A DNA stretch of 11,609 nucleotides, taken from IMG/VR virus record IMGVR_UViG_2695420600_000007; one strand, 5' to 3'. Position numbers and translations under genes: made by a program. Shown one piece after another: positions 479 through 11,609 of the stretch (position 1 is its first letter; each line of letters starts with the position of its first letter). The notes under the pieces are model-generated. The model was given only the letters and a program-made list of their open reading frames with translations. It was not told the origin of the DNA and did not search any database. This DNA comes from a virus. Its lineage: Duplodnaviria > Heunggongvirae > Uroviricota > Caudoviricetes.

Positions 479-3055
479 ATGAGTGATATTTTCTCAGGAA
501 GAGAATTATCAGTACAGTATAATGCTGATATTGGTAACAGAACACCACAGGGAGCAGGCAATGTAGTAATTAAACAGATTAATACTTTTCCAACCTTAAC
601 AATAAATTCAGAAGCAAATAATTTTGAAACGTATGATAGTGATTACAGGACAGTACTACTATCTGATAAATCAGTAGCACCATTTGATATTGTAGTTAAC
701 TACCTACCTGATGATCCTACACATCAATTCTTGGATAATGCCGCTAAGTCTCAGCAGCTTTTCCAGATCATCATTCAGTACCAGATGAATAAGGATGAAA
801 ATACCATTACTTATGCGATGGTGAATGGTTATATCACCTCTTATAAGTTGGACGGTGATAAAGGTTCAGTAGTAACCAAGGCATACAGTTTTGCCCCACA
901 TGATGTGATCGCACGTGCAATGACCATTAACGCACTATCGCCAATCTATCAGGGGGACTACGGTTTAGGTTCGAACACTACGGATGTACCTCAGTACTCA
1001 CCATCAGTACCTACGGGTAACAGCTTCATCAAAGTACCATCATCTCAAGCAGGCAATCCTGCCGGGGCGGATCTGATGGGAGTAGGGCTTGTAGATGGCA
1101 CTACTGTAAGTTCTCTTGCGATGACAAAGACGGGTACTCTAAGTATCTATGCAAAGAACGCTACAACCGCCTGGACACGCATATATACCGCTACACAGAT
1201 GGACGGGCGATACGTACCCCTTACACGTACCATCAACGGCCATGCACTCACGGCCAATTTAGTACTGAACAGTGAAGATACAGGTTCAGTACCTGATACA
1301 CGTACTGTGAATGGTAAGCCTCTAAGTGAGGATGTAGTACTTACCAGTACTGATACCGGCTCTGTACCAGATACACGGACAGTTAATGGTCATGTACTCA
1401 GTGAAGATATAGTACTGAGTAGTGAAGATACAGGTTCAGTACCTGATACACGTATGGTCAACGGTCATGTACTCAGTGAGGATGTAGTACTTACCAGTAC
1501 TGATGTTGGCTTAGGGAAGGTTACAGATGATGCCCAGCTTACGATAGCAGGTAATCTAAGTGATCTGGGGGACGTGGAAGAAGCACGTATTAACCTTGCT
1601 GTTTACTCAATGGATGAAGTAGATGCAGAGGTAACGGCTTTAGCTGACAGTATTACTTCCCTTGATTCCGCTTCCATGAAGAAAGCGAGTAACCTTTCTG
1701 ATCTATCCAGTCTCTCTACAGCACGTACTAACCTACAGGTGAACCGTTTGACTCAGGGTGCTACGTACACCGATCTGATGAGTAATGACCTGACTAACCG
1801 TATCCGAATTCAGGATAACGGGGCATGGGGTGCAAGTACTGGTACTGGATGGATTGCTTTAGGTATAGGTCAGGGGGGGACAGGGGCTACAGATGCTTTG
1901 AGTGCTCGCCTAAACTTTCAGGTGGATCGCTTTAATCAAGGTAGTAATTTAACAACTATTAAATCCGCTGATTCTTCCGCTGCATTAGTGGTTTATGATG
2001 GAGGGCAATGGGGTTCAGCTACATATATTGCGGGTGCTTTCACTGGCTGGAAAGCATTAGCAATTCCGCAGGGCGGTACTGGTGTTAAGACTCAGGCTGA
2101 GTTATGGCCTGCGATTCGTCCTACGGGTGCAACTTCTTTAGCAGGAGATCCTGTCTCTGATTCTGACGCGACTACCAAACGCTGGGTTGAAAACTTGCTG
2201 AGTAGTCGTACTTCAGTTAGTCCTCAATGGGATGTTATTGCTTCTTCCCCTTCCTCTACGGCAATTGGTAGTTATGTAACTGGAGGGCGTATTCGTTCGA
2301 TATGCAACATTGGTACATCAACTGAAATATCTGGTGGTTTTCGGGTTGGTAAAACGATGGGACAGACTGGACAGGCTGATCTCACCCTTTTTATTTCTGA
2401 AAATGGTGCAGAGGATAAACTATGGGGGCTAAAAGGGCCGACTGGAACGATCCTAACTGATGTTCAATCAGGATGGATGACTAATACCGCTGTTTCGGGA
2501 CCGACAGATGCCAATACCATCACCTTTAACGGTATGTATGCAGGGCCAGGTGACTCAGGTATTAACTATAGTGAAAAATATTCCCCTTTATTGCACATGC
2601 AAAGACACCCAGGGGCAAATCGCTCTCAGCTTCAGATAGACGGTGGTGGTACTTTAAGAGTACGAGGCGGGAACGGTACAACATGGTTTGGATGGTTAGT
2701 AATGCAAGCTCAAGGTACATCAGGTCGTGAGTTTAAAAGAGACATAACTCCAGCAAATCCAGTTGAAGCATTAGATCGGATAATGTCACAAGATTTAGTA
2801 ACGTTTATCTACAAGGATGATGAACAAGAAAGGGTTAGGTTTGGTGTTATCGCCGAAGATGCTGAGTTGACTGCTCCGCAGTACATTAAGCATGATGAAG
2901 AAACAGTTGAAATAGAAGGGGAGATTGTCACTCGTGATCATCCACGTGTTGATTTAAATCCAATAGTGATGGACTTGATGGGAGCTATTCAAGCCCAACA
3001 AGAAGAAATTAATCAGCTAAAAGATTTAGTACAACAGCTATTAAATAATAAATAA
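479..3055 (+). CDS. Tail fibre protein (858 aa): N-terminal domain paralogous to the tube protein, tandem fibre repeats, and a C-terminal intramolecular chaperone (peptidase S74-like) autoprocessing domain
   Basis: Long ORF with RBS AAAGGA at 465..470. The N-terminus MSDIFSG...NTF...VNYLPDD...GDKGSVVTKAYSFA aligns with the 3114..3587 protein (MAMDIFSG...NTF...VNYLPDN...GDKDEVVTKTFTLA). Four tandem 25-aa repeats (SVPDTRTVNG..LSEDVVLTSTDTG) resemble phage tail-fibre repeats. NLSDL...AR.NL and GGTG motifs are fibre-like. The C-terminus SGREFKRDITPANPVEALDRI...FIYKDDEQERVRFGVIAEDAE matches the S-D/G-x-R-x-K-x-(N/D)-I pattern of endosialidase-type chaperone domains. Confidence 0.85.
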   Translation: MSDIFSGRELSVQYNADIGNRTPQGAGNVVIKQINTFPTLTINSEANNFETYDSDYRTVLLSDKSVAPFDIVVNYLPDDPTHQFLDNAAKSQQLFQIIIQYQMNKDENTITYAMVNGYITSYKLDGDKGSVVTKAYSFAPHDVIARAMTINALSPIYQGDYGLGSNTTDVPQYSPSVPTGNSFIKVPSSQAGNPAGADLMGVGLVDGTTVSSLAMTKTGTLSIYAKNATTAWTRIYTATQMDGRYVPLTRTINGHALTANLVLNSEDTGSVPDTRTVNGKPLSEDVVLTSTDTGSVPDTRTVNGHVLSEDIVLSSEDTGSVPDTRMVNGHVLSEDVVLTSTDVGLGKVTDDAQLTIAGNLSDLGDVEEARINLAVYSMDEVDAEVTALADSITSLDSASMKKASNLSDLSSLSTARTNLQVNRLTQGATYTDLMSNDLTNRIRIQDNGAWGASTGTGWIALGIGQGGTGATDALSARLNFQVDRFNQGSNLTTIKSADSSAALVVYDGGQWGSATYIAGAFTGWKALAIPQGGTGVKTQAELWPAIRPTGATSLAGDPVSDSDATTKRWVENLLSSRTSVSPQWDVIASSPSSTAIGSYVTGGRIRSICNIGTSTEISGGFRVGKTMGQTGQADLTLFISENGAEDKLWGLKGPTGTILTDVQSGWMTNTAVSGPTDANTITFNGMYAGPGDSGINYSEKYSPLLHMQRHPGANRSQLQIDGGGTLRVRGGNGTTWFGWLVMQAQGTSGREFKRDITPANPVEALDRIMSQDLVTFIYKDDEQERVRFGVIAEDAELTAPQYIKHDEETVEIEGEIVTRDHPRVDLNPIVMDLMGAIQAQQEEINQLKDLVQQLLNNK
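1211..1510 (+). repeat. Four in-frame tandem 75-bp (25-codon) repeats inside the fibre gene
   Basis: Repeat units at 1211..1285, 1286..1360, 1361..1435 and 1436..1510. Perfect 34-nt direct repeats at 1271..1304 and 1421..1454, and perfect 30-nt direct repeats at 1325..1354 and 1475..1504, give a 150-bp super-period. Confidence 0.85.
2720..3052 (+). other. C-terminal intramolecular chaperone / autoproteolytic domain of the fibre (S74-like); predicted cleavage immediately before Ser748 (codon 2720..2722)
   Basis: Motif QAQGT|SGREFKRDI followed by ALDRI and FIYKDD..RVRFGVIAEDAE, then a C-terminal helical heptad-like tail (IQAQQEEINQLKDLVQQLL). Assigned from recalled family motifs, not from a search. 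Confidence 0.6.
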
Positions 3056-3098: not shown

Positions 3099-3113
3099 TA
3101 AGGATATAAAACT

Positions 3114-3587
3114 ATGGCTATGGATATTTTTTCCGGTGCTAACCTTACTGTAGAAGTAGGTTCAAGTGCTGGTAAAACAGTTGCTACTGACTTTGTAGAA
3201 GTACCAGAGGTAAACACCTTCAGTACTTCAGGCTTTGAAAGTACTGTAATTAGCGTAAAAACATTCAATAATGCTTATGATCGTAAGCTATTGGGTACTA
3301 AGTCAATCCCGGACATTTCTCTTGCAGTTAACTACTTACCAGATAATGCAGTACATCAGAATTTAGAACAACTTGCAGACGATCAGAAACGTTGTCAGGT
3401 AAAACTAAGCTATTTTACCGATGCAACTAAAAAAGAAGGTTTCTTTGTAATTTATACCTGCTTTGTTTCAAGTACCACTATCGGTGGTGATAAAGATGAA
3501 GTAGTAACTAAGACTTTCACCCTTGCAGTTGATGGTGAAGCAATTGATTCAGGTCTGATTACTCCAAAACCAGAATCGGGCGAATAA
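3114..3587 (+). CDS. Probable major tail (tube) protein, 157 aa
   Basis: Sits directly upstream of the chaperone pair and tape measure gene, the position of lambda gene V. Size and the N-terminal G-x-x-L-x-V-x-V-G pattern are typical of siphovirus tube proteins. RBS AAGGA at 3100..3104. Followed by a hairpin terminator, as is common for highly expressed tube genes. Confidence 0.6.
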   Translation: MAMDIFSGANLTVEVGSSAGKTVATDFVEVPEVNTFSTSGFESTVISVKTFNNAYDRKLLGTKSIPDISLAVNYLPDNAVHQNLEQLADDQKRCQVKLSYFTDATKKEGFFVIYTCFVSSTTIGGDKDEVVTKTFTLAVDGEAIDSGLITPKPESGE

Positions 3588-3595
3588 TAATAAAT

Positions 3596-3626
3596 AAAGG
3601 GAAGGTGCTCAACTTTCCCTTTTTTA
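3596..3626 (+). terminator. Rho-independent terminator or attenuator between the tube gene and the chaperone genes
   Basis: Stem AAAGGGAAG (3596..3604) pairs with 3614..3622 (CTTTCCCTT region) around a 9-nt loop, followed by a T-run at 3620..3625. Confidence 0.5.
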
Positions 3627-3638
3627 TTGGAGATGAAA

Positions 3639-3938
3639 ATGAATTTAAACGAATTGAAGAAAAAACTACAACCAGAATTAAAACCACATGAAGTAATGGG
3701 TGAAATCATCTTTATTCATCGTCCAAATGGTCAGGATTTCCAGAAATGCACTGATGTGGCTAAAACTCTAATCCTATGTGTAAAAGATGAAAATGGTGAT
3801 CCTATCTTCGCAGAAGAAGATATTGATGGACGAATTAATGTTAACTCTATTGATTTTGTAATCCAGAATGAAATTTACTCAGCAATTATTGCTTTAATCA
3901 ATACTGCGAAACCTGTAGATGAAGTAGAAAAAAAGTAA
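3639..3938 (+). CDS. Tail assembly chaperone, gpG-like
   Basis: Small acidic protein directly upstream of the tape measure gene. ORF track frame begins at TTG 3627; the preferred start is ATG 3639, with GGAG at 3629..3632 and a 6-nt spacer. Ends ...VDEVEKK with stop at 3936..3938. Confidence 0.7.
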   Translation: MNLNELKKKLQPELKPHEVMGEIIFIHRPNGQDFQKCTDVAKTLILCVKDENGDPIFAEEDIDGRINVNSIDFVIQNEIYSAIIALINTAKPVDEVEKK

Positions 3939-4333
3939 GAGGTGATATCGAATTAAAGTACTTTTGTAAGATGGTTAACAAAAGAGGCTTATCACCTGAA
4001 GAATACTTTAGTTTAGATCCTGATGTACTCAATATGCTTATGATCTACGATACTTTTATAGAACCATCCGGTACGCAGATTGAAATGATGAAACATGCGT
4101 ACCAGTGTTACTACACCACTATCAGTAATGGCAACCTAACACCAGAAGCAAGGAAAAGTATCAAGGTACAGGATTTTGATTTTCTTGATGTGCTTAGTGA
4201 TAGTACTAAGAGTACTTCAGAGAAAGCTGAAGAAAGAAAATTAAAAACTAAAGAGGCTCAATCCAATGATATTAAATCTATAGGGGAGTTAATTAAATCT
4301 CAGGTATTAGGAAAGAAAAAGAATGGCAAATAA
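3639..4333 (+). CDS. Tail assembly chaperone frameshift fusion product, gpGT-like (-1 shift at 3929..3935; the T-part frame ends at 4333)
   Basis: The downstream ORF (frame of 3971..4333) lies in the -1 frame relative to the G-like ORF and is open back to 3923, overlapping the slippery site. Its stop overlaps the tape measure start at 4323. Confidence 0.6.
3929..3935 (+). promoter_or_regulatory. Programmed -1 ribosomal frameshift slippery heptamer A_AAA_AAG
   Basis: In the zero frame the codons are gaA AAA AAG then TAA. A 7-A run at 3928..3934 is followed by G. The -1 frame is open from 3923 and continues into the 3971..4333 ORF, matching the conserved G/GT arrangement. Confidence 0.7.
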
Positions 4334-6536
4334 TAATAGAATACGTGTAGATATTACGGGTGATTCTTCCGGTTTACAGCGTGCTTTAAGGTCTGGTACT
4401 GAATCATTAGAGGAATTTGGTAGTACTGCTGGTGGCATTGTTGAAGAGTTCACAGGCCGAATAACTGGTATGGCTGGCGGGTTCGGTACTGCTATGACCG
4501 GGATCGCGGGTGCTGCGGCTATTGGTATTGGTGGCCTGGCAGCATTAGTAGAATCATCACGTGAATATGTGCGTGAAATGAACCAGATCAGTAAGAGTAC
4601 CGGATTGTCCGTGGTTCAGTTACAACAGCTATCAGCGGCGTTTAGTGGCCTCGGTCTTGAGATTGATAAGTTTGGTGATTTCAACAAGGATACCTTGGAT
4701 AAGCTCGGTGATGCTTTTCGTGCTGGCGGTGGTGTATCCGATGATCTTAAAGAATATGGACTCAACCTACAGGACTATAACAAGTACTTAAAACAGGCTG
4801 ATGGTGGTATGCAGGCTGTGATCCACACCTTTTACGCCATGCGTGATGCAGGTAAATCACAGAGTGAAATAGTTAACGTAATGGAAACGTTAGCCAGTGA
4901 CTCAAGCCACATGATTAGTACTCTTCAGCAGTTCAATAATGAGGCTCAAGCTACAGCCTATATCCAGTCACAAAATGCTGAAGTAACTAATGATGCTGCT
5001 GAAAAATATGCTGAATTCGATAAAAACCTTGGGAAACTTACTACCAGCATTAAAGGTACTATTGCTGATGGCCTATCACCTTTAGTTAATGCCATGAACA
5101 GTGTCTATGATGCTGCAAATCAAAAACCTCACGAGGCAGGTTTGTTTGAAGATCTGAATGAACGTATTAAAACTTCCAAGGGTTCTCTACAGGATATGTT
5201 GGATATCTGGGAAAAATTACGTACAGCAGGGGCATTAAACTACCAGGGTGCAGCACTCAATACTGGCATCATGGATGATAAGGGCAACAAGGGTAATGAG
5301 TTCGCTCAGGCTAAGGCACGTTTAGAAGAACTGGCAAACAACCTAAAGTCCGATGTTGCGGTTGCTACCGCTCCTACTGGCGGATGGGTTGATCAGGCAA
5401 AAGAAGCTGAAGATGCAGCGAAGAAGTTAGAACAACAACGTAAACAGGCAGAAGCGGCACAAAAGGCGGCAGATGCAAAACGCCTACAGGCTCAACGTAA
5501 TCTGGAAGCTGCTCTTGCTCAAGTTGGGGAAGATGGTTTTCAGGTACGTCTACAGCAGTTCGACAGACAACAAAAGGCACTTCTTAAAACCATCACCGAT
5601 AGTGCTCAAGTACTCGGTATCAATCCTGATGAAATGCTAAAGAACGCTACTGCATATGGTGCTAAACAACGTACTGATTTACTGAATTCAATGGTTGGTT
5701 ATCAAGATCCTAATCAGGGTCTGAAAGATACCAATGCTCTTATTGGTTCCGGTCTACTCAATGACAATCAGAAGGGGTATCTGGCACAGCAACAGAATCA
5801 GCGTATCAATGGTGGTAATCCATTAGCCTATAACGATACCGATCAGAAGTTGAAAGATAACGCTGATGCTATGAATGCTGAACTTCAGCAGAATGAGTTG
5901 TTGCTGAAAGGCCATGAGGACTATGAGAAACGTAAAGCTGAGATCACGGCAAAGTACAATGCACAGGCCATCCAAATCAGTAACCAGAATGCACAGGATC
6001 AGTTAAGTATCTTCTCAAGTACTGCACAGTCACTATCACAGGGCATGGTTGATGCGTTTGGGGAAAGTAGTGGGGCTGCACAAGCTGCATTTACCCTAAG
6101 TAAGAGCATAAGCATTGCACAGACAGTACTTTCAATTCAGTCAGCATTGGCCCAAGCACTCGCTACCCCTTGGCCAGCTTCATTGGCAAACTATGCACAA
6201 GTACTTTCACTTGGTATGTCGATTATTAGTACTGCAAAGGGTGCTGCTGCTGGTCAGTTCCATGGCGGGGTAGATGAACTACCAGCAAGTTATGACAACA
6301 AATCATTTGTACTTAAGCAGGGCGAGAGAGTGGTGCAGCCTGAAGCGAATAAGAAATTAACAGCATTCTTGGATAAACAAGAAGGTGGAAGTACTTCAGG
6401 TGATATTACCGTTAACGCACCATTGATCATCCAGGGTGATGTAGCTGATGATGACAAGAAATTTAATGAGATGCTTAAGAAACACGCCAATAGTGTTTCT
6501 CAAGCTGTGAGAAGTAGTCAAAAACGTAATACATAA
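4323..6536 (+). CDS. Tail tape measure protein, 737 aa
   Basis: Position after the G/GT pair. Gly/Ala-rich hydrophobic N-terminal segment (GMAGGFGTAMTGIAGAAAIGIGGLAAL), a long central Ala/Gln/Lys-rich helical region, and a C-terminal hydrophobic segment (ALATPWPASLANYAQVLSLGMSIISTAKGAAAG). Confidence 0.85.
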   Translation: MANNNRIRVDITGDSSGLQRALRSGTESLEEFGSTAGGIVEEFTGRITGMAGGFGTAMTGIAGAAAIGIGGLAALVESSREYVREMNQISKSTGLSVVQLQQLSAAFSGLGLEIDKFGDFNKDTLDKLGDAFRAGGGVSDDLKEYGLNLQDYNKYLKQADGGMQAVIHTFYAMRDAGKSQSEIVNVMETLASDSSHMISTLQQFNNEAQATAYIQSQNAEVTNDAAEKYAEFDKNLGKLTTSIKGTIADGLSPLVNAMNSVYDAANQKPHEAGLFEDLNERIKTSKGSLQDMLDIWEKLRTAGALNYQGAALNTGIMDDKGNKGNEFAQAKARLEELANNLKSDVAVATAPTGGWVDQAKEAEDAAKKLEQQRKQAEAAQKAADAKRLQAQRNLEAALAQVGEDGFQVRLQQFDRQQKALLKTITDSAQVLGINPDEMLKNATAYGAKQRTDLLNSMVGYQDPNQGLKDTNALIGSGLLNDNQKGYLAQQQNQRINGGNPLAYNDTDQKLKDNADAMNAELQQNELLLKGHEDYEKRKAEITAKYNAQAIQISNQNAQDQLSIFSSTAQSLSQGMVDAFGESSGAAQAAFTLSKSISIAQTVLSIQSALAQALATPWPASLANYAQVLSLGMSIISTAKGAAAGQFHGGVDELPASYDNKSFVLKQGERVVQPEANKKLTAFLDKQEGGSTSGDITVNAPLIIQGDVADDDKKFNEMLKKHANSVSQAVRSSQKRNT

Positions 6537-6546
6537 GAAAGCCCAG

Positions 6547-7119
6547 TTAGGGATTTTCCGTGTGATAAGACAAATATTGTGAAAGAGAAGATGAAAGGGT
6601 ATAGAGATTGTAATACTCTTCCCGCAATAATTTAACTTTAGGTGGTGAGTATTTAATATTGTATGCAAGCTGTGTTGAAAGAGTACGTAATCTCGATAAT
6701 GAATAATAACTCTTTACGATGGCATCTACTTCTTTTTTTGGGAGTGATGCTAATTTTTCTAATTGGGAATAATATACATCATCATGCAAATAAGAAACGG
6801 CAGTTGCTACTCTTTTAATAGCTTCTGTATCTTCAGTTGGAAGAGGAATACATATTTCATATGTGCCTAACACCTGAGACTCATCGCCACCAGTAGCAAG
6901 AGCTAAAAGGTTATTGTTGATTTCGCTCAATAAGATTACACGCATCTTAAAAACATCATCTGAACTTTCTTTCCATTTATCATATGCGTTATAGCCTATT
7001 TGGCCTGCAAATAACAACATAGCAACGATGACGGATGCAGCCTGCCAATCAAGCCTGTTAAAAAAAATACGAATCGAGGTTTTTAAATAAATAAAGAAAG
7101 AAGATATTCGAGGTAACAA
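6547..7119 (-). CDS. Hypothetical protein with a hydrophobic N-terminal segment; reverse-oriented accessory gene (moron) inside the tail module
   Basis: The only long ORF in the 584-bp gap between the tape measure and gpM-like genes, on the opposite strand. The region is visibly more AT-rich than its neighbours. ORF track start is TTG 7119; in-frame ATGs lie at 7020 and 6945, so the true start is uncertain. The N-terminus WQAASVIVAMLLFAGQIGY is hydrophobic. No recognisable family motif. Confidence 0.5.
   Translation of the reverse strand: MLPRISSFFIYLKTSIRIFFNRLDWQAASVIVAMLLFAGQIGYNAYDKWKESSDDVFKMRVILLSEINNNLLALATGGDESQVLGTYEICIPLPTEDTEAIKRVATAVSYLHDDVYYSQLEKLASLPKKEVDAIVKSYYSLSRLRTLSTQLAYNIKYSPPKVKLLREEYYNLYTLSSSLSQYLSYHTENP

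Positions 7120-8300: not shown

Positions 8301-8301
<1 letters not shown>
7678..8301 (+). CDS. Minor tail protein, gpL-like
   Basis: Coupled to its neighbours by TAATG overlaps at both ends. Size (207 aa) and position match lambda gene L. Similarity is loose and pattern-level only. Confidence 0.5.

Positions 8302-11609
<3,308 letters not shown>

What the first reader, a model, noticed from the sequence alone, without database searches (positions are those of the whole stretch)
3923..4333. G/GT-type -1 programmed frameshift in the tail chaperone pair
The slippery heptamer A_AAA_AAG at 3929..3935 sits 1 nt before the G-like stop, and the -1 frame is open from 3923 through 4333. This matches the conserved frameshift that makes a minor chaperone fusion product in long-tailed phages. 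It confirms the identity of both ORFs and of the tape measure gene downstream, and means the 3971..4333 ORF is probably not independently initiated.
Basis: partly seen in the sequence, partly recalled or inferred. Interest (0 to 1): 0.35.

Follow-up and report, generated by a model that had tools for sequence, protein, structure and literature searches.

The report
Tail chaperone -1 frameshift site
This is an ordinary but well-supported example of the ribosomal -1 frameshift that long-tailed phages use to make a short and a long tail-assembly chaperone from one gene pair, here in an uncharacterised prophage lineage of enterobacteria.

Summary
A_AAA_AAG lies at 3929-3935 in the frame of a 99-aa chaperone-like gene (3639-3938). 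It directly abuts the TAA stop at 3936-3938. The -1 frame is open from 3923 to 4333 and ends 11 nt inside the tape measure gene (4323-6536).

Comparative evidence from 30 related viral loci (tape measure identity 100% to 36%) and two bacterial genomes supports a lambda G/GT-type -1 frameshift:
- GAA AAA AAR TAA is present in all 29 viral loci that include the junction.
- The second ORF is always in the -1 frame.
- In 17 loci the -1 frame opens exactly at the heptamer.
- The 12 codons between the heptamer and ATG 3971 behave as coding sequence in the -1 frame.
- ATG 3971 has no Shine-Dalgarno sequence in any locus.

The SD-like GAGGTGAT after the stop is not a ribosome binding site. It is the 5' arm of a predicted stem (3940-3947 with 3990-3997). 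That stem has moderate support and is specific to the window's clade.

Verdict: a new member of a known kind, of low interest. No protein data exist. Slippage by RNA polymerase on the A7 run would give the same protein and is not excluded.

The parts
3114..3587 (+). Tail tube (major tail) protein gene, 157 aa. It is the upstream synteny anchor.
   Evidence: PF08813 Phage_tail_3 E 2.8e-8 (above cutoff); phrog_158 major tail protein E 5.8e-19.
3596..3622 (+). Terminator-like hairpin followed by a T-run, between the tube gene and the chaperone gene. It is context and may lower transcription into G/GT/TMP.
   Evidence: 11-pair stem plus T-run, with 2 sites found against 0.5 expected. A similar hairpin is present in L011.
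3629..3633 (+). Shine-Dalgarno sequence (GGAGA) of the G-like gene.
   Evidence: Anti-SD duplex -6.4 kcal/mol, 3-5 nt before ATG 3639.
3639..3938 (+). G-like tail assembly chaperone gene, 99 aa. It is the product of standard frame-0 decoding.
   Evidence: phrog_344 E 1.2e-5; PF16459 E 5e-5, below cutoff. Homologues are 98-99 aa, start MNL and end (D/E)E(V/I/L/F)EKK in most (SIEKK in L027).
3929..3935 (+). Slippery heptamer A_AAA_AAG in X_XXY_YYZ phase. It is the proposed -1 shift site.
   Evidence: A_AAA_AAR is present in all 29 related viral loci that include the junction. Codons GAA and AAA are invariant there, whereas 24 of 27 other invariant-residue columns vary synonymously.
3936..3938 (+). 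Frame-0 TAA stop directly abutting the heptamer. It terminates G and may act as a 'shifty stop' contributor.
   Evidence: TAA at this exact position in all 24 distinct sequences. A stimulatory role is inference.
3935..3970 (+). Twelve linker codons in the -1 frame (VRGDIELKYFCK). They can be translated only after a frameshift.
   Evidence: No stop in the -1 frame in 24 distinct sequences, against 17 and 22 sequences with stops in the other two frames. Synonymous to non-synonymous codon-pair differences are 514:1264 against 123:1702 and 245:1694. One Leu (codon 3953-3955) is invariant with synonymous codon changes; Asp (3944-3946) and Lys (3968-3970) are conserved in 23 of 24 distinct sequences.
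3935..4333 (+). T-like -1 frame segment, 132 codons plus stop. Fused to G it gives a predicted 231-aa GT protein.
   Evidence: It is in the -1 frame relative to G in all 29 viral loci that include the junction. It has no Pfam or PHROG family.
3940..3947 (+). 5' arm (AGGUGAUA) of the candidate 3' stimulatory stem, 4 nt after the heptamer. It overlaps the SD-like GAGGTGAT.
   Evidence: MFE -15.3 kcal/mol, z -2.4. Pair probabilities 0.6-1.0. More stable than 99.7% of synonymous recodings.
3990..3997 (+). 3' arm (UAUCACCU) of the candidate stem.
   Evidence: 6-8 of 8 pairs are kept in 18 of the 24 sequences compared (which include the Pluralibacter locus L031). L015 has a compensatory U-A to C-G change made by two synonymous substitutions. 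The stem is absent at these columns in L017-L020.
3961..3984 (+). Inner helix CUUUUGU/ACAAAAG of the predicted hairpin. ATG 3971 lies in its apical loop.
   Evidence: Only 72.6% of cells are paired across relatives. Support is weak.
4323..6536 (+). Tape measure protein gene, 737 aa. It is the downstream synteny anchor and overlaps the end of T by 11 nt.
   Evidence: phrog_13674 tail length tape measure protein E 5.4e-86.

Best explanation
The two ORFs between the tail tube gene and the tape measure gene form a G/GT-type chaperone pair.

Most ribosomes that start at ATG 3639 read to TAA 3936 and release the 99-aa G-like chaperone. A minority slip back one base on A_AAA_AAG (3929-3935). The slip occurs in one of two ways. 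Either the two Lys-tRNAs re-pair from AAA-AAG to AAA-AAA, or the P-site Lys-tRNA slips while the adjacent TAA waits for release factor. Translation then continues at GTA 3935 in the -1 frame to TAA 4331-4333. The product is a 231-aa GT fusion with the junction ...EKK-VRGD....

The 3971-4333 ORF is therefore not a separately initiated gene. A stem that starts 4 nt after the heptamer (3940-3947 paired with 3990-3997) probably raises the shift frequency in this clade.

By analogy with lambda, the G parts would coat the tape measure protein and the T part would recruit the tube protein.

Shown here: the sequence anatomy, its conservation, the coding signature of the linker, and the lack of an independent start. 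Inferred: that the shift happens, its efficiency, the role of the stem and of the stop, and the binding partners.
For: 1. Anatomy: in-phase A_AAA_AAG abuts the TAA, and the -1 frame is open 3923-4333 with no start codon before 3971.

2. Synteny: tube gene, then G-like, then T-like, then tape measure.

3. Conservation: GAA AAA AAR TAA is present in all 29 related viral loci that include the junction and in Pluralibacter gergoviae. Neighbouring codons differ at 36-55% of sites between sequences.

4. Frame relation: T is -1 relative to G in every viral locus. In 17 loci a -1-frame TGA sits immediately before the heptamer, so the heptamer is the only place where a -1 shift could join the two frames.

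5. Codon level: GAA and AAA of the motif are invariant, whereas 24 of 27 other invariant-residue columns with degenerate codons vary.

6. Linker: its 12 codons carry a coding signature in the -1 frame only.

7. No RBS: ATG 3971 scores -0.4 kcal/mol in the window and 0 to -3.0 in 24 homologous sequences, against -3.3 to -7.2 for eight other window genes.

8. Distant relative: in E. coli phage DCP80 the T frame is again -1, with an in-phase T_TTA_AAG. The conserved RGLLPE motif lies upstream of the first ATG of that frame.

9. Stem: it is more stable than dinucleotide shuffles (z -2.4) and than synonymous recodings (z -2.5, 0.3% as stable), with one compensatory double-synonymous change.

10. 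Literature: A_AAA_AAG is the most shift-prone heptamer tested in E. coli. [quoted passage not shown]
Against: - No protein-level evidence exists for a fusion product in this lineage.
- The T part matches no family and does not match lambda gpT. The G match to chaperone families is weak, and its Pfam score is below the curated cutoff.
- The stem is not general. RNAalifold finds no consensus structure over all 24 sequences. Covariation is thin, with 7 double-change cells. Eleven of the 19 sequences tested fold no better than their synonymous recodings (z above -1).
- Codon invariance in the motif could partly reflect A-rich codon bias, since one unrelated Glu column is also invariant GAA.
- The Met at 3971 is conserved in 23 of 24 sequences, which would also fit a start codon.
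- The Phytobacter locus (L032) has A7T in place of A8T, which puts T in the +1 frame.
Confidence: 0.85

Rival explanations
1. T is made as a separate protein. Ribosomes either initiate at ATG 3971 independently, or reinitiate there after terminating at TAA 3936 (translational coupling or 70S scanning over 32 nt). On this reading the heptamer is only the codons for a conserved EKK tail.
For: ATG 3971 is the first start codon of the frame, and its Met is conserved in 23 of 24 distinct sequences. Gene callers treat T as its own gene (P0001; the DCP80 annotation). An SD-like GAGGTGAT lies upstream.
Against: There is no SD within 20 nt of the ATG in any of 24 sequences. GAGGTGAT is 24 nt away, is absent in L017-L020, L027 and L029, and is predicted to be paired. 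The 12 codons upstream of the ATG are stop-free and conserved as protein in the -1 frame only. In L029 the Met is replaced by Leu. In DCP80 the conserved RGLLPE motif precedes the first ATG. The ATG lies 32 nt from the stop, far beyond the usual coupling distance.
Confidence: 0.06
2. The GT fusion is real but arises by transcriptional slippage. RNA polymerase adds one extra A on the A7 run (3928-3934; A8 in seven distinct relatives). Standard translation of that mRNA would then yield the same EKK-VRGD protein.
For: Inserting one A gives a protein identical to the -1 frameshift product (read from the sequence). The conserved element is a homopolymer of 7-8 A. Homopolymer-length variants of exactly this run occur in public assemblies (L032 has A7T, L034 has A6). 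Slippage by bacterial RNA polymerase on A/T runs is established (PMC5009743).
Against: High-efficiency slippage is described for runs of 9 A or T, and here the run is 7-8. The last base is G in 17 of 24 sequences. That choice shortens the run but gives the most shift-prone ribosomal heptamer. A stop immediately after the site and a stem 4 nt downstream are features of ribosomal shifting, not polymerase slippage. The assembly variants occur in a draft genome and in an error-rich long-read contig with fragmented genes, so they are probably sequencing errors.
Confidence: 0.07
3. The arrangement is a chance juxtaposition. An A-rich codon run happens to end a gene in a 32% G+C region, a -1 ORF happens to follow, and neither has any recoding function.
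For: AAAAAAG is not over-represented in the window. In-phase X_XXY_YYZ heptamers occur about once per kb of coding sequence.
Against: The motif, its phase, the abutting stop and the -1 relation are all kept across lineages with tape measure identity down to 36%. In 17 loci the overlap is exactly the heptamer.
Confidence: 0.02

Closest known systems
Bacteriophage lambda gpG/gpGT tail assembly chaperones (-1 frameshift at G_GGA_AAG; Levin 1993 and Xu 2004, 2013, 2014, as summarised in PMC5009743)
   Same: The gene pair lies between the tube gene and the tape measure gene. The second ORF is in the -1 frame with no start of its own. An in-phase heptamer ending in AAG lies at the end of the first ORF. 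A short product and a C-terminally extended product are predicted.
   Different: The heptamer is A_AAA_AAG, not G_GGA_AAG. It abuts the stop codon, whereas in lambda it lies several codons upstream (recalled from memory). A stem is predicted 4 nt downstream. The T part has no detectable similarity to lambda gpT (PF06223 not hit). The G part matches a different chaperone family (PF16459, phrog_344), and only weakly.
E. coli dnaX gamma/tau -1 frameshift
   Same: It uses the identical heptamer A_AAA_AAG, read by the single enterobacterial Lys-tRNA, with a 3' stem-loop a few nt downstream (PMC5009743).
   Different: dnaX also uses an upstream SD-like stimulator, and its shifted frame ends almost at once, giving a shorter product. 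Here the shifted frame is long, giving an extended product. No upstream SD-like element was noted. The SD-like sequence here lies downstream, inside the stem.
Escherichia phage DCP80 (PQ671644), the closest deposited phage with a full-length tape measure match (35% identity)
   Same: It has the same module order, an MNL... G-like gene, T in the -1 frame, and the conserved RGL(S/L)PE and YxEPxG motifs in T.
   Different: Its in-phase heptamer is T_TTA_AAG, 10 codons before the G stop. The record annotates both genes as hypothetical proteins and starts T at an internal ATG, with no slippage annotation.
'Shifty stop' single-tRNA -1 slippage at A_AAG next to a stop codon (Weiss et al. 1987, cited in PMC5009743)
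   Same: AAG would be in the P site with a stop in the A site. This is a known context for -1 re-pairing of Lys-tRNA.
   Different: Here it is only a possible contributor. It cannot be told apart from tandem slippage by sequence or by product.

Membership tests
G/GT-type programmed -1 frameshift of long-tailed phage tail assembly chaperones | Two consecutive ORFs lie between the major tail (tube) gene and the tape measure gene. | tested here: met
   Tube gene 3114-3587 (PF08813, phrog_158), G 3639-3938, T frame 3923-4333, tape measure gene 4323-6536 (phrog_13674, E 5e-86). The order is the same in all 29 viral loci that include the junction.
G/GT-type programmed -1 frameshift of long-tailed phage tail assembly chaperones | The second ORF overlaps the end of the first in an alternative (-1) frame. 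| tested here: met
   The overlap is 13 nt in the window. The frame is -1 in all 29 viral loci that include the junction, and the overlap is exactly 7 nt in 17 of them. One exception exists, L032, with one A fewer.
G/GT-type programmed -1 frameshift of long-tailed phage tail assembly chaperones | An in-phase slippery sequence (X_XXY_YYZ) lies within the overlap. | tested here: met
   A_AAA_AAG at 3929-3935. A_AAA_AAR is conserved in all relatives. DCP80 has T_TTA_AAG instead.
G/GT-type programmed -1 frameshift of long-tailed phage tail assembly chaperones | The second ORF lacks its own translation initiation signals. | tested here: met
   There is no start codon between 3923 and 3970. ATG 3971 has no SD in any of 24 sequences. 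The linker is conserved as coding sequence.
G/GT-type programmed -1 frameshift of long-tailed phage tail assembly chaperones | The upstream product belongs to a tail assembly chaperone family. | tested here: inconclusive
   phrog_344 at E 1.2e-5 (14 of 16 homologues hit it, best 1.1e-7). PF16459 scores 24 bits, below its 28.8-bit cutoff (14 of 16 homologues hit it at E 0.01 or better). The single-sequence AlphaFold model was unusable, with pLDDT 39. The PDB profile search found nothing relevant.
G/GT-type programmed -1 frameshift of long-tailed phage tail assembly chaperones | Both a short protein and a frameshifted fusion protein are produced, in a fixed ratio, and both are needed for tail assembly. 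| not testable with these tools
   This needs mass spectrometry, western blotting and genetics.
Lambda gpT protein family (Pfam Phage_tail_T) | The -1 frame part is similar in sequence to lambda gpT. | tested here: not met
   No Pfam or PHROG hit for 3971-4333, or for the T part of 16 fusion sequences, at E 0.01 or better. The segment is T-like only by position and architecture.
Described RNA frameshift-stimulating elements (Rfam) | A match to a curated covariance model at or near the shift site. | tested here: not met
   No Rfam hit overlaps 3900-4010 even at E up to 10.

The most novel reading that the evidence does not exclude
The invariant abutment of A_AAA_AAR to TAA may be part of the signal in this lineage. 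On this reading much of the shifting happens by P-site slippage while the stop codon waits in the A site. The G:GT ratio would then be set by the competition between release factor and slippage, and so by host termination capacity, with the clade-specific stem acting as an optional booster. A further possibility is that polymerase slippage on the A7-A8 run contributes a second route to the same protein. Either would make this a variant of the G/GT mechanism in which chaperone stoichiometry responds to host physiology.
Probability: 0.12. Interest if true: 0.45.

Novelty: new member of a known kind. Interest (0 to 1): 0.2.

Why it matters
The main value is for annotation. In this prophage lineage of Enterobacterales, which has no close relative among deposited phages, the 120-aa ORF should be annotated as the -1 frame part of a 231-aa GT fusion with ribosomal slippage at 3935. 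Gene callers and the nearest deposited phage record currently treat it as a separate or truncated gene.

The finding also fixes the identity of the tail module. It adds one more independent lineage in which the G/GT arrangement is kept without any T sequence similarity to lambda. It does not open a new question.

Tried and rejected
- Megablast of 3100-6600 against deposited phages and of 3100-4400 against complete E. coli genomes gave no match. No annotated near-relative was available.
- A whole-database protein search with the 231-aa fusion returned only two proteins.
  - P0001 is a T ORF called from a TTG inside the linker.
  - P0002 looked like a natural in-frame G-T fusion (DEIEK-IRGD). 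It comes from a Canu-style 1.37-Mb contig with fragmented neighbouring genes and an A6 run where close relatives have A8. I rejected it as a homopolymer assembly error.
- RNAalifold on all 24 distinct junctions predicted no consensus structure. The stem is therefore claimed only for the window's clade.
- A pseudoknot between the hairpin interior and 3998-4045 was no better than shuffled controls.
The single-sequence model of G had pLDDT 39, so no fold search was run.
- A profile search of PDB sequences gave only spurious dynein hits.
- The SD-like GAGGTGAT was considered as an RBS for a non-canonical start. No start codon lies 5-10 nt downstream in the T frame, and the motif is not conserved in diverged loci. 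It was also considered as a frameshift stimulator of the dnaX kind. It lies on the wrong (3') side of the shift site for that role.

Full report
**Observation**

Frame-0 codons read ...GTA GAT GAA GTA GAA AAA AAG TAA. A_AAA_AAG at 3929-3935 is therefore in X_XXY_YYZ phase, and the TAA at 3936-3938 follows with no gap.

The -1 frame is closed by TGA at 3920-3922 and then open from 3923 to TAA 4331-4333. It contains no ATG, GTG or TTG before ATG 3971.

The upstream gene most likely starts at ATG 3639, behind GGAGA at 3629-3633. All homologues start MNL... at that point and are 98-99 aa long. A -1 shift on the heptamer gives ...VDEVEKK-VRGDIELK..., a protein of 99 + 132 = 231 aa.

**Is it more than chance?**

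The heptamer by itself is not unusual. AAAAAAG occurs 5 times in the window against 3.0 expected. Ten in-phase X_XXY_YYZ heptamers occur in the window's genes. The weight lies in position and conservation.

A scan of viral contigs with the tape measure protein gave 30 loci, from 100% down to 36% identity. In the 29 that include the junction:
- GAA AAA AAR TAA ends the G-like gene, while neighbouring codons differ freely. Mean pairwise difference in the preceding 60 nt is 0.49, 0.36 and 0.55 at codon positions 1, 2 and 3.
- The second ORF is always -1 relative to the first.
- In 17 loci a -1-frame TGA sits directly before the heptamer. The heptamer is then the only place where the two frames can be joined.

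Among 27 columns of the G-T alignment with an invariant residue and degenerate codons, 24 vary synonymously. Two of the three that do not are the GAA and AAA of the motif. The last Lys codon varies only between AAG (17 sequences) and AAA (7), and both keep the site slippery.

**Context**

- Upstream lies a 157-aa tail tube protein gene, 3114-3587 (PF08813 above cutoff; phrog_158).
- Downstream lies a 737-aa tape measure gene, 4323-6536 (phrog_13674, E 5e-86), which overlaps the end of T by 11 nt.
- The G-like protein hits phrog_344 "tail assembly chaperone" at E 1.2e-5. It hits PF16459 below its cutoff. Fourteen of 16 homologues hit each family.
- The T part hits nothing, including lambda gpT. 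It is T-like only by position.

**Independent initiation of T**

The anti-SD duplex energy upstream of ATG 3971 is -0.4 kcal/mol. Eight other gene starts in the window score -3.3 to -7.2. The 24 distinct homologous sequences score 0 to -3.0 at the equivalent ATG.

The 33 nt between the stop and the ATG have no stop in the -1 frame in any of the 24 sequences. Stops occur in 17 and 22 sequences in the other two frames. The ratio of synonymous to non-synonymous codon-pair differences is 514:1264 in the -1 frame, against 123:1702 and 245:1694. One Leu is invariant, encoded by TTA, CTG, TTG or CTA; an Asp and a Lys are conserved in 23 of 24 distinct sequences.

In L029 the Met itself is Leu. In the distant E. 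coli phage DCP80, T is again in the -1 frame and an in-phase T_TTA_AAG lies 10 codons before the G stop. There the conserved RGLLPE motif precedes the first ATG of the frame. The deposited record starts T at an internal ATG.

The region upstream of ATG 3971 is therefore translated, and only a frameshift can reach it.

**The SD-like GAGGTGAT at 3939-3946**

It is not one:
- It is 24 nt from the ATG.
- No start codon lies at a workable distance in the T frame.
- It is absent from L017-L020, L027 and L029.

Instead it forms the 5' arm of the minimum-free-energy structure. AGGUGAUA at 3940-3947 pairs with UAUCACCU at 3990-3997, starting 4 nt after the heptamer. An inner helix places the AUG in the apical loop. 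The energy is -15.3 kcal/mol, with z -2.4 against dinucleotide shuffles. Pair probabilities are 0.6-1.0 in both a 75-nt and a 200-nt context.

Against 300 synonymous recodings of the same peptide, the native sequence is more stable than 99.7% (z -2.5). L005, L007, L012, L015, L022 and L025 behave similarly, with z from -2.0 to -2.8.

In 18 of the 24 sequences compared (which include the Pluralibacter locus L031), 6-8 of the 8 pairs are kept. L015 changes a U-A pair to C-G through two synonymous substitutions, GGT to GGC and TCA to TCG.

The support has clear limits:
- RNAalifold finds no consensus structure over all sequences.
- Only 7 cells show double changes.
- L017-L020 lack these pairs. 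L017 and L018 instead have a different stem that starts at the same distance.
- Eleven of the 19 sequences tested fold no better than their synonymous recodings, with z above -1.

I treat the stem as a probable clade-specific stimulator, at about even odds. I found no evidence for a pseudoknot and no Rfam family at the site.

**Mechanism**

The best-supported reading is a -1 ribosomal frameshift on A_AAA_AAG. This is the most shift-prone heptamer tested in E. coli, because the single Lys-tRNA pairs better with AAA than with AAG (PMC5009743). The hosts here are Enterobacterales: Pluralibacter gergoviae at 81% and Phytobacter massiliensis at 39%.

The invariant abutting TAA leaves open a contribution from P-site slippage while the stop is in the A site. 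This gives the same product and cannot be distinguished from sequence.

Polymerase slippage that adds one A on the A7-A8 run would also give the same protein. It is less likely to dominate. High-efficiency slippage is described for runs of 9, and most sequences end the run with G.

Function is inferred by analogy with lambda: G and the G part of GT bind the tape measure protein, and T recruits the tube protein (PMC5009743).

**Oddities at the A-run in public data**

- L032 (Phytobacter) has A7T where its nearest relative L017 has A8T. This puts T in the +1 frame.
- P0002/L034 has A6 and an apparent in-frame fusion, but lies in an error-rich long-read contig.
- L011 has a frame break near the end of T.

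I read these as homopolymer sequencing errors. This is inference.

**Verdict**

This is a new member of a very well known kind, in a prophage lineage with no close deposited relative. Interest is low. The useful outcome is the corrected annotation.

Noticed in passing
window 479-3055 and 3114-3587: There are two paralogous tail tube genes in tandem. The 858-aa protein has an N-terminal tube domain (residues 2-150, phrog_158) that is 31% identical over 137 aa to the 157-aa tube protein (E 3e-19). It continues with tail-fibre-like regions, including tandem repeats of about 22 aa (TGSVPDTRTVNGxxLSEDVVL...), and ends in a Peptidase_S74 intramolecular chaperone domain (749-797). This suggests a tube subunit carrying a fibre, which may be co-assembled with the plain subunit.
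   Followed up: partly
window 3596-3626: A terminator-like hairpin (11-pair stem) followed by a T-run lies between the tube gene and the chaperone gene. A similar hairpin is present in L011. It may lower transcription of G/GT and the tape measure gene relative to the tube protein gene.
   Followed up: partly
window 6547-7119, minus strand: A 190-aa ORF on the opposite strand, with a hydrophobic N-terminal segment and 34% G+C, is wedged between the tape measure gene and the distal tail protein gene. It looks like a moron or cargo gene inside the tail module. It was not searched against any library.
   Followed up: no
window 8686-11609: An open frame of at least 974 aa runs off the right end of the window, after the DUF6950 gene (8301-8705). 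It is probably the tail tip or host-specificity protein. The ORF listing does not list it because it has no stop within the window.
   Followed up: no
L032 3270-3300 (Phytobacter massiliensis JC163, NZ_HE578945.1): The shift-site run is A7 followed by T, instead of A8 followed by T as in the nearest relative L017. G therefore reads on for 12 more codons and T lies in the +1 frame. This is either a homopolymer error in a draft genome or a real variant that would need a +1 or -2 shift.
   Followed up: partly
L034 2576-2595 (ENA ERZ1332367 tig00000001) and protein P0002: There is an apparent natural in-frame G-T fusion (DEIEK-IRGD) with an A6 run. The neighbouring tail genes are fragmented into short ORFs, so this is most likely an indel-rich long-read assembly.
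   Followed up: yes
L033 (Escherichia phage DCP80, PQ671644.1, record 13777-14462): The deposited record annotates the G-like and T-like genes as separate hypothetical proteins and starts T at an internal ATG. An in-phase T_TTA_AAG (L033 5095-5101) and an open -1 frame indicate an unannotated G/GT frameshift. The record is labelled Straboviridae/Gaprivervirus, yet it carries this siphovirus-style chaperone and tape measure module.
   Followed up: partly
L011 5880-5920: The T frame of this otherwise typical relative is interrupted near its lysine- and glutamate-rich C-terminal part, and continues in another frame. This is either an indel or a sequencing error next to an A-run.
   Followed up: no
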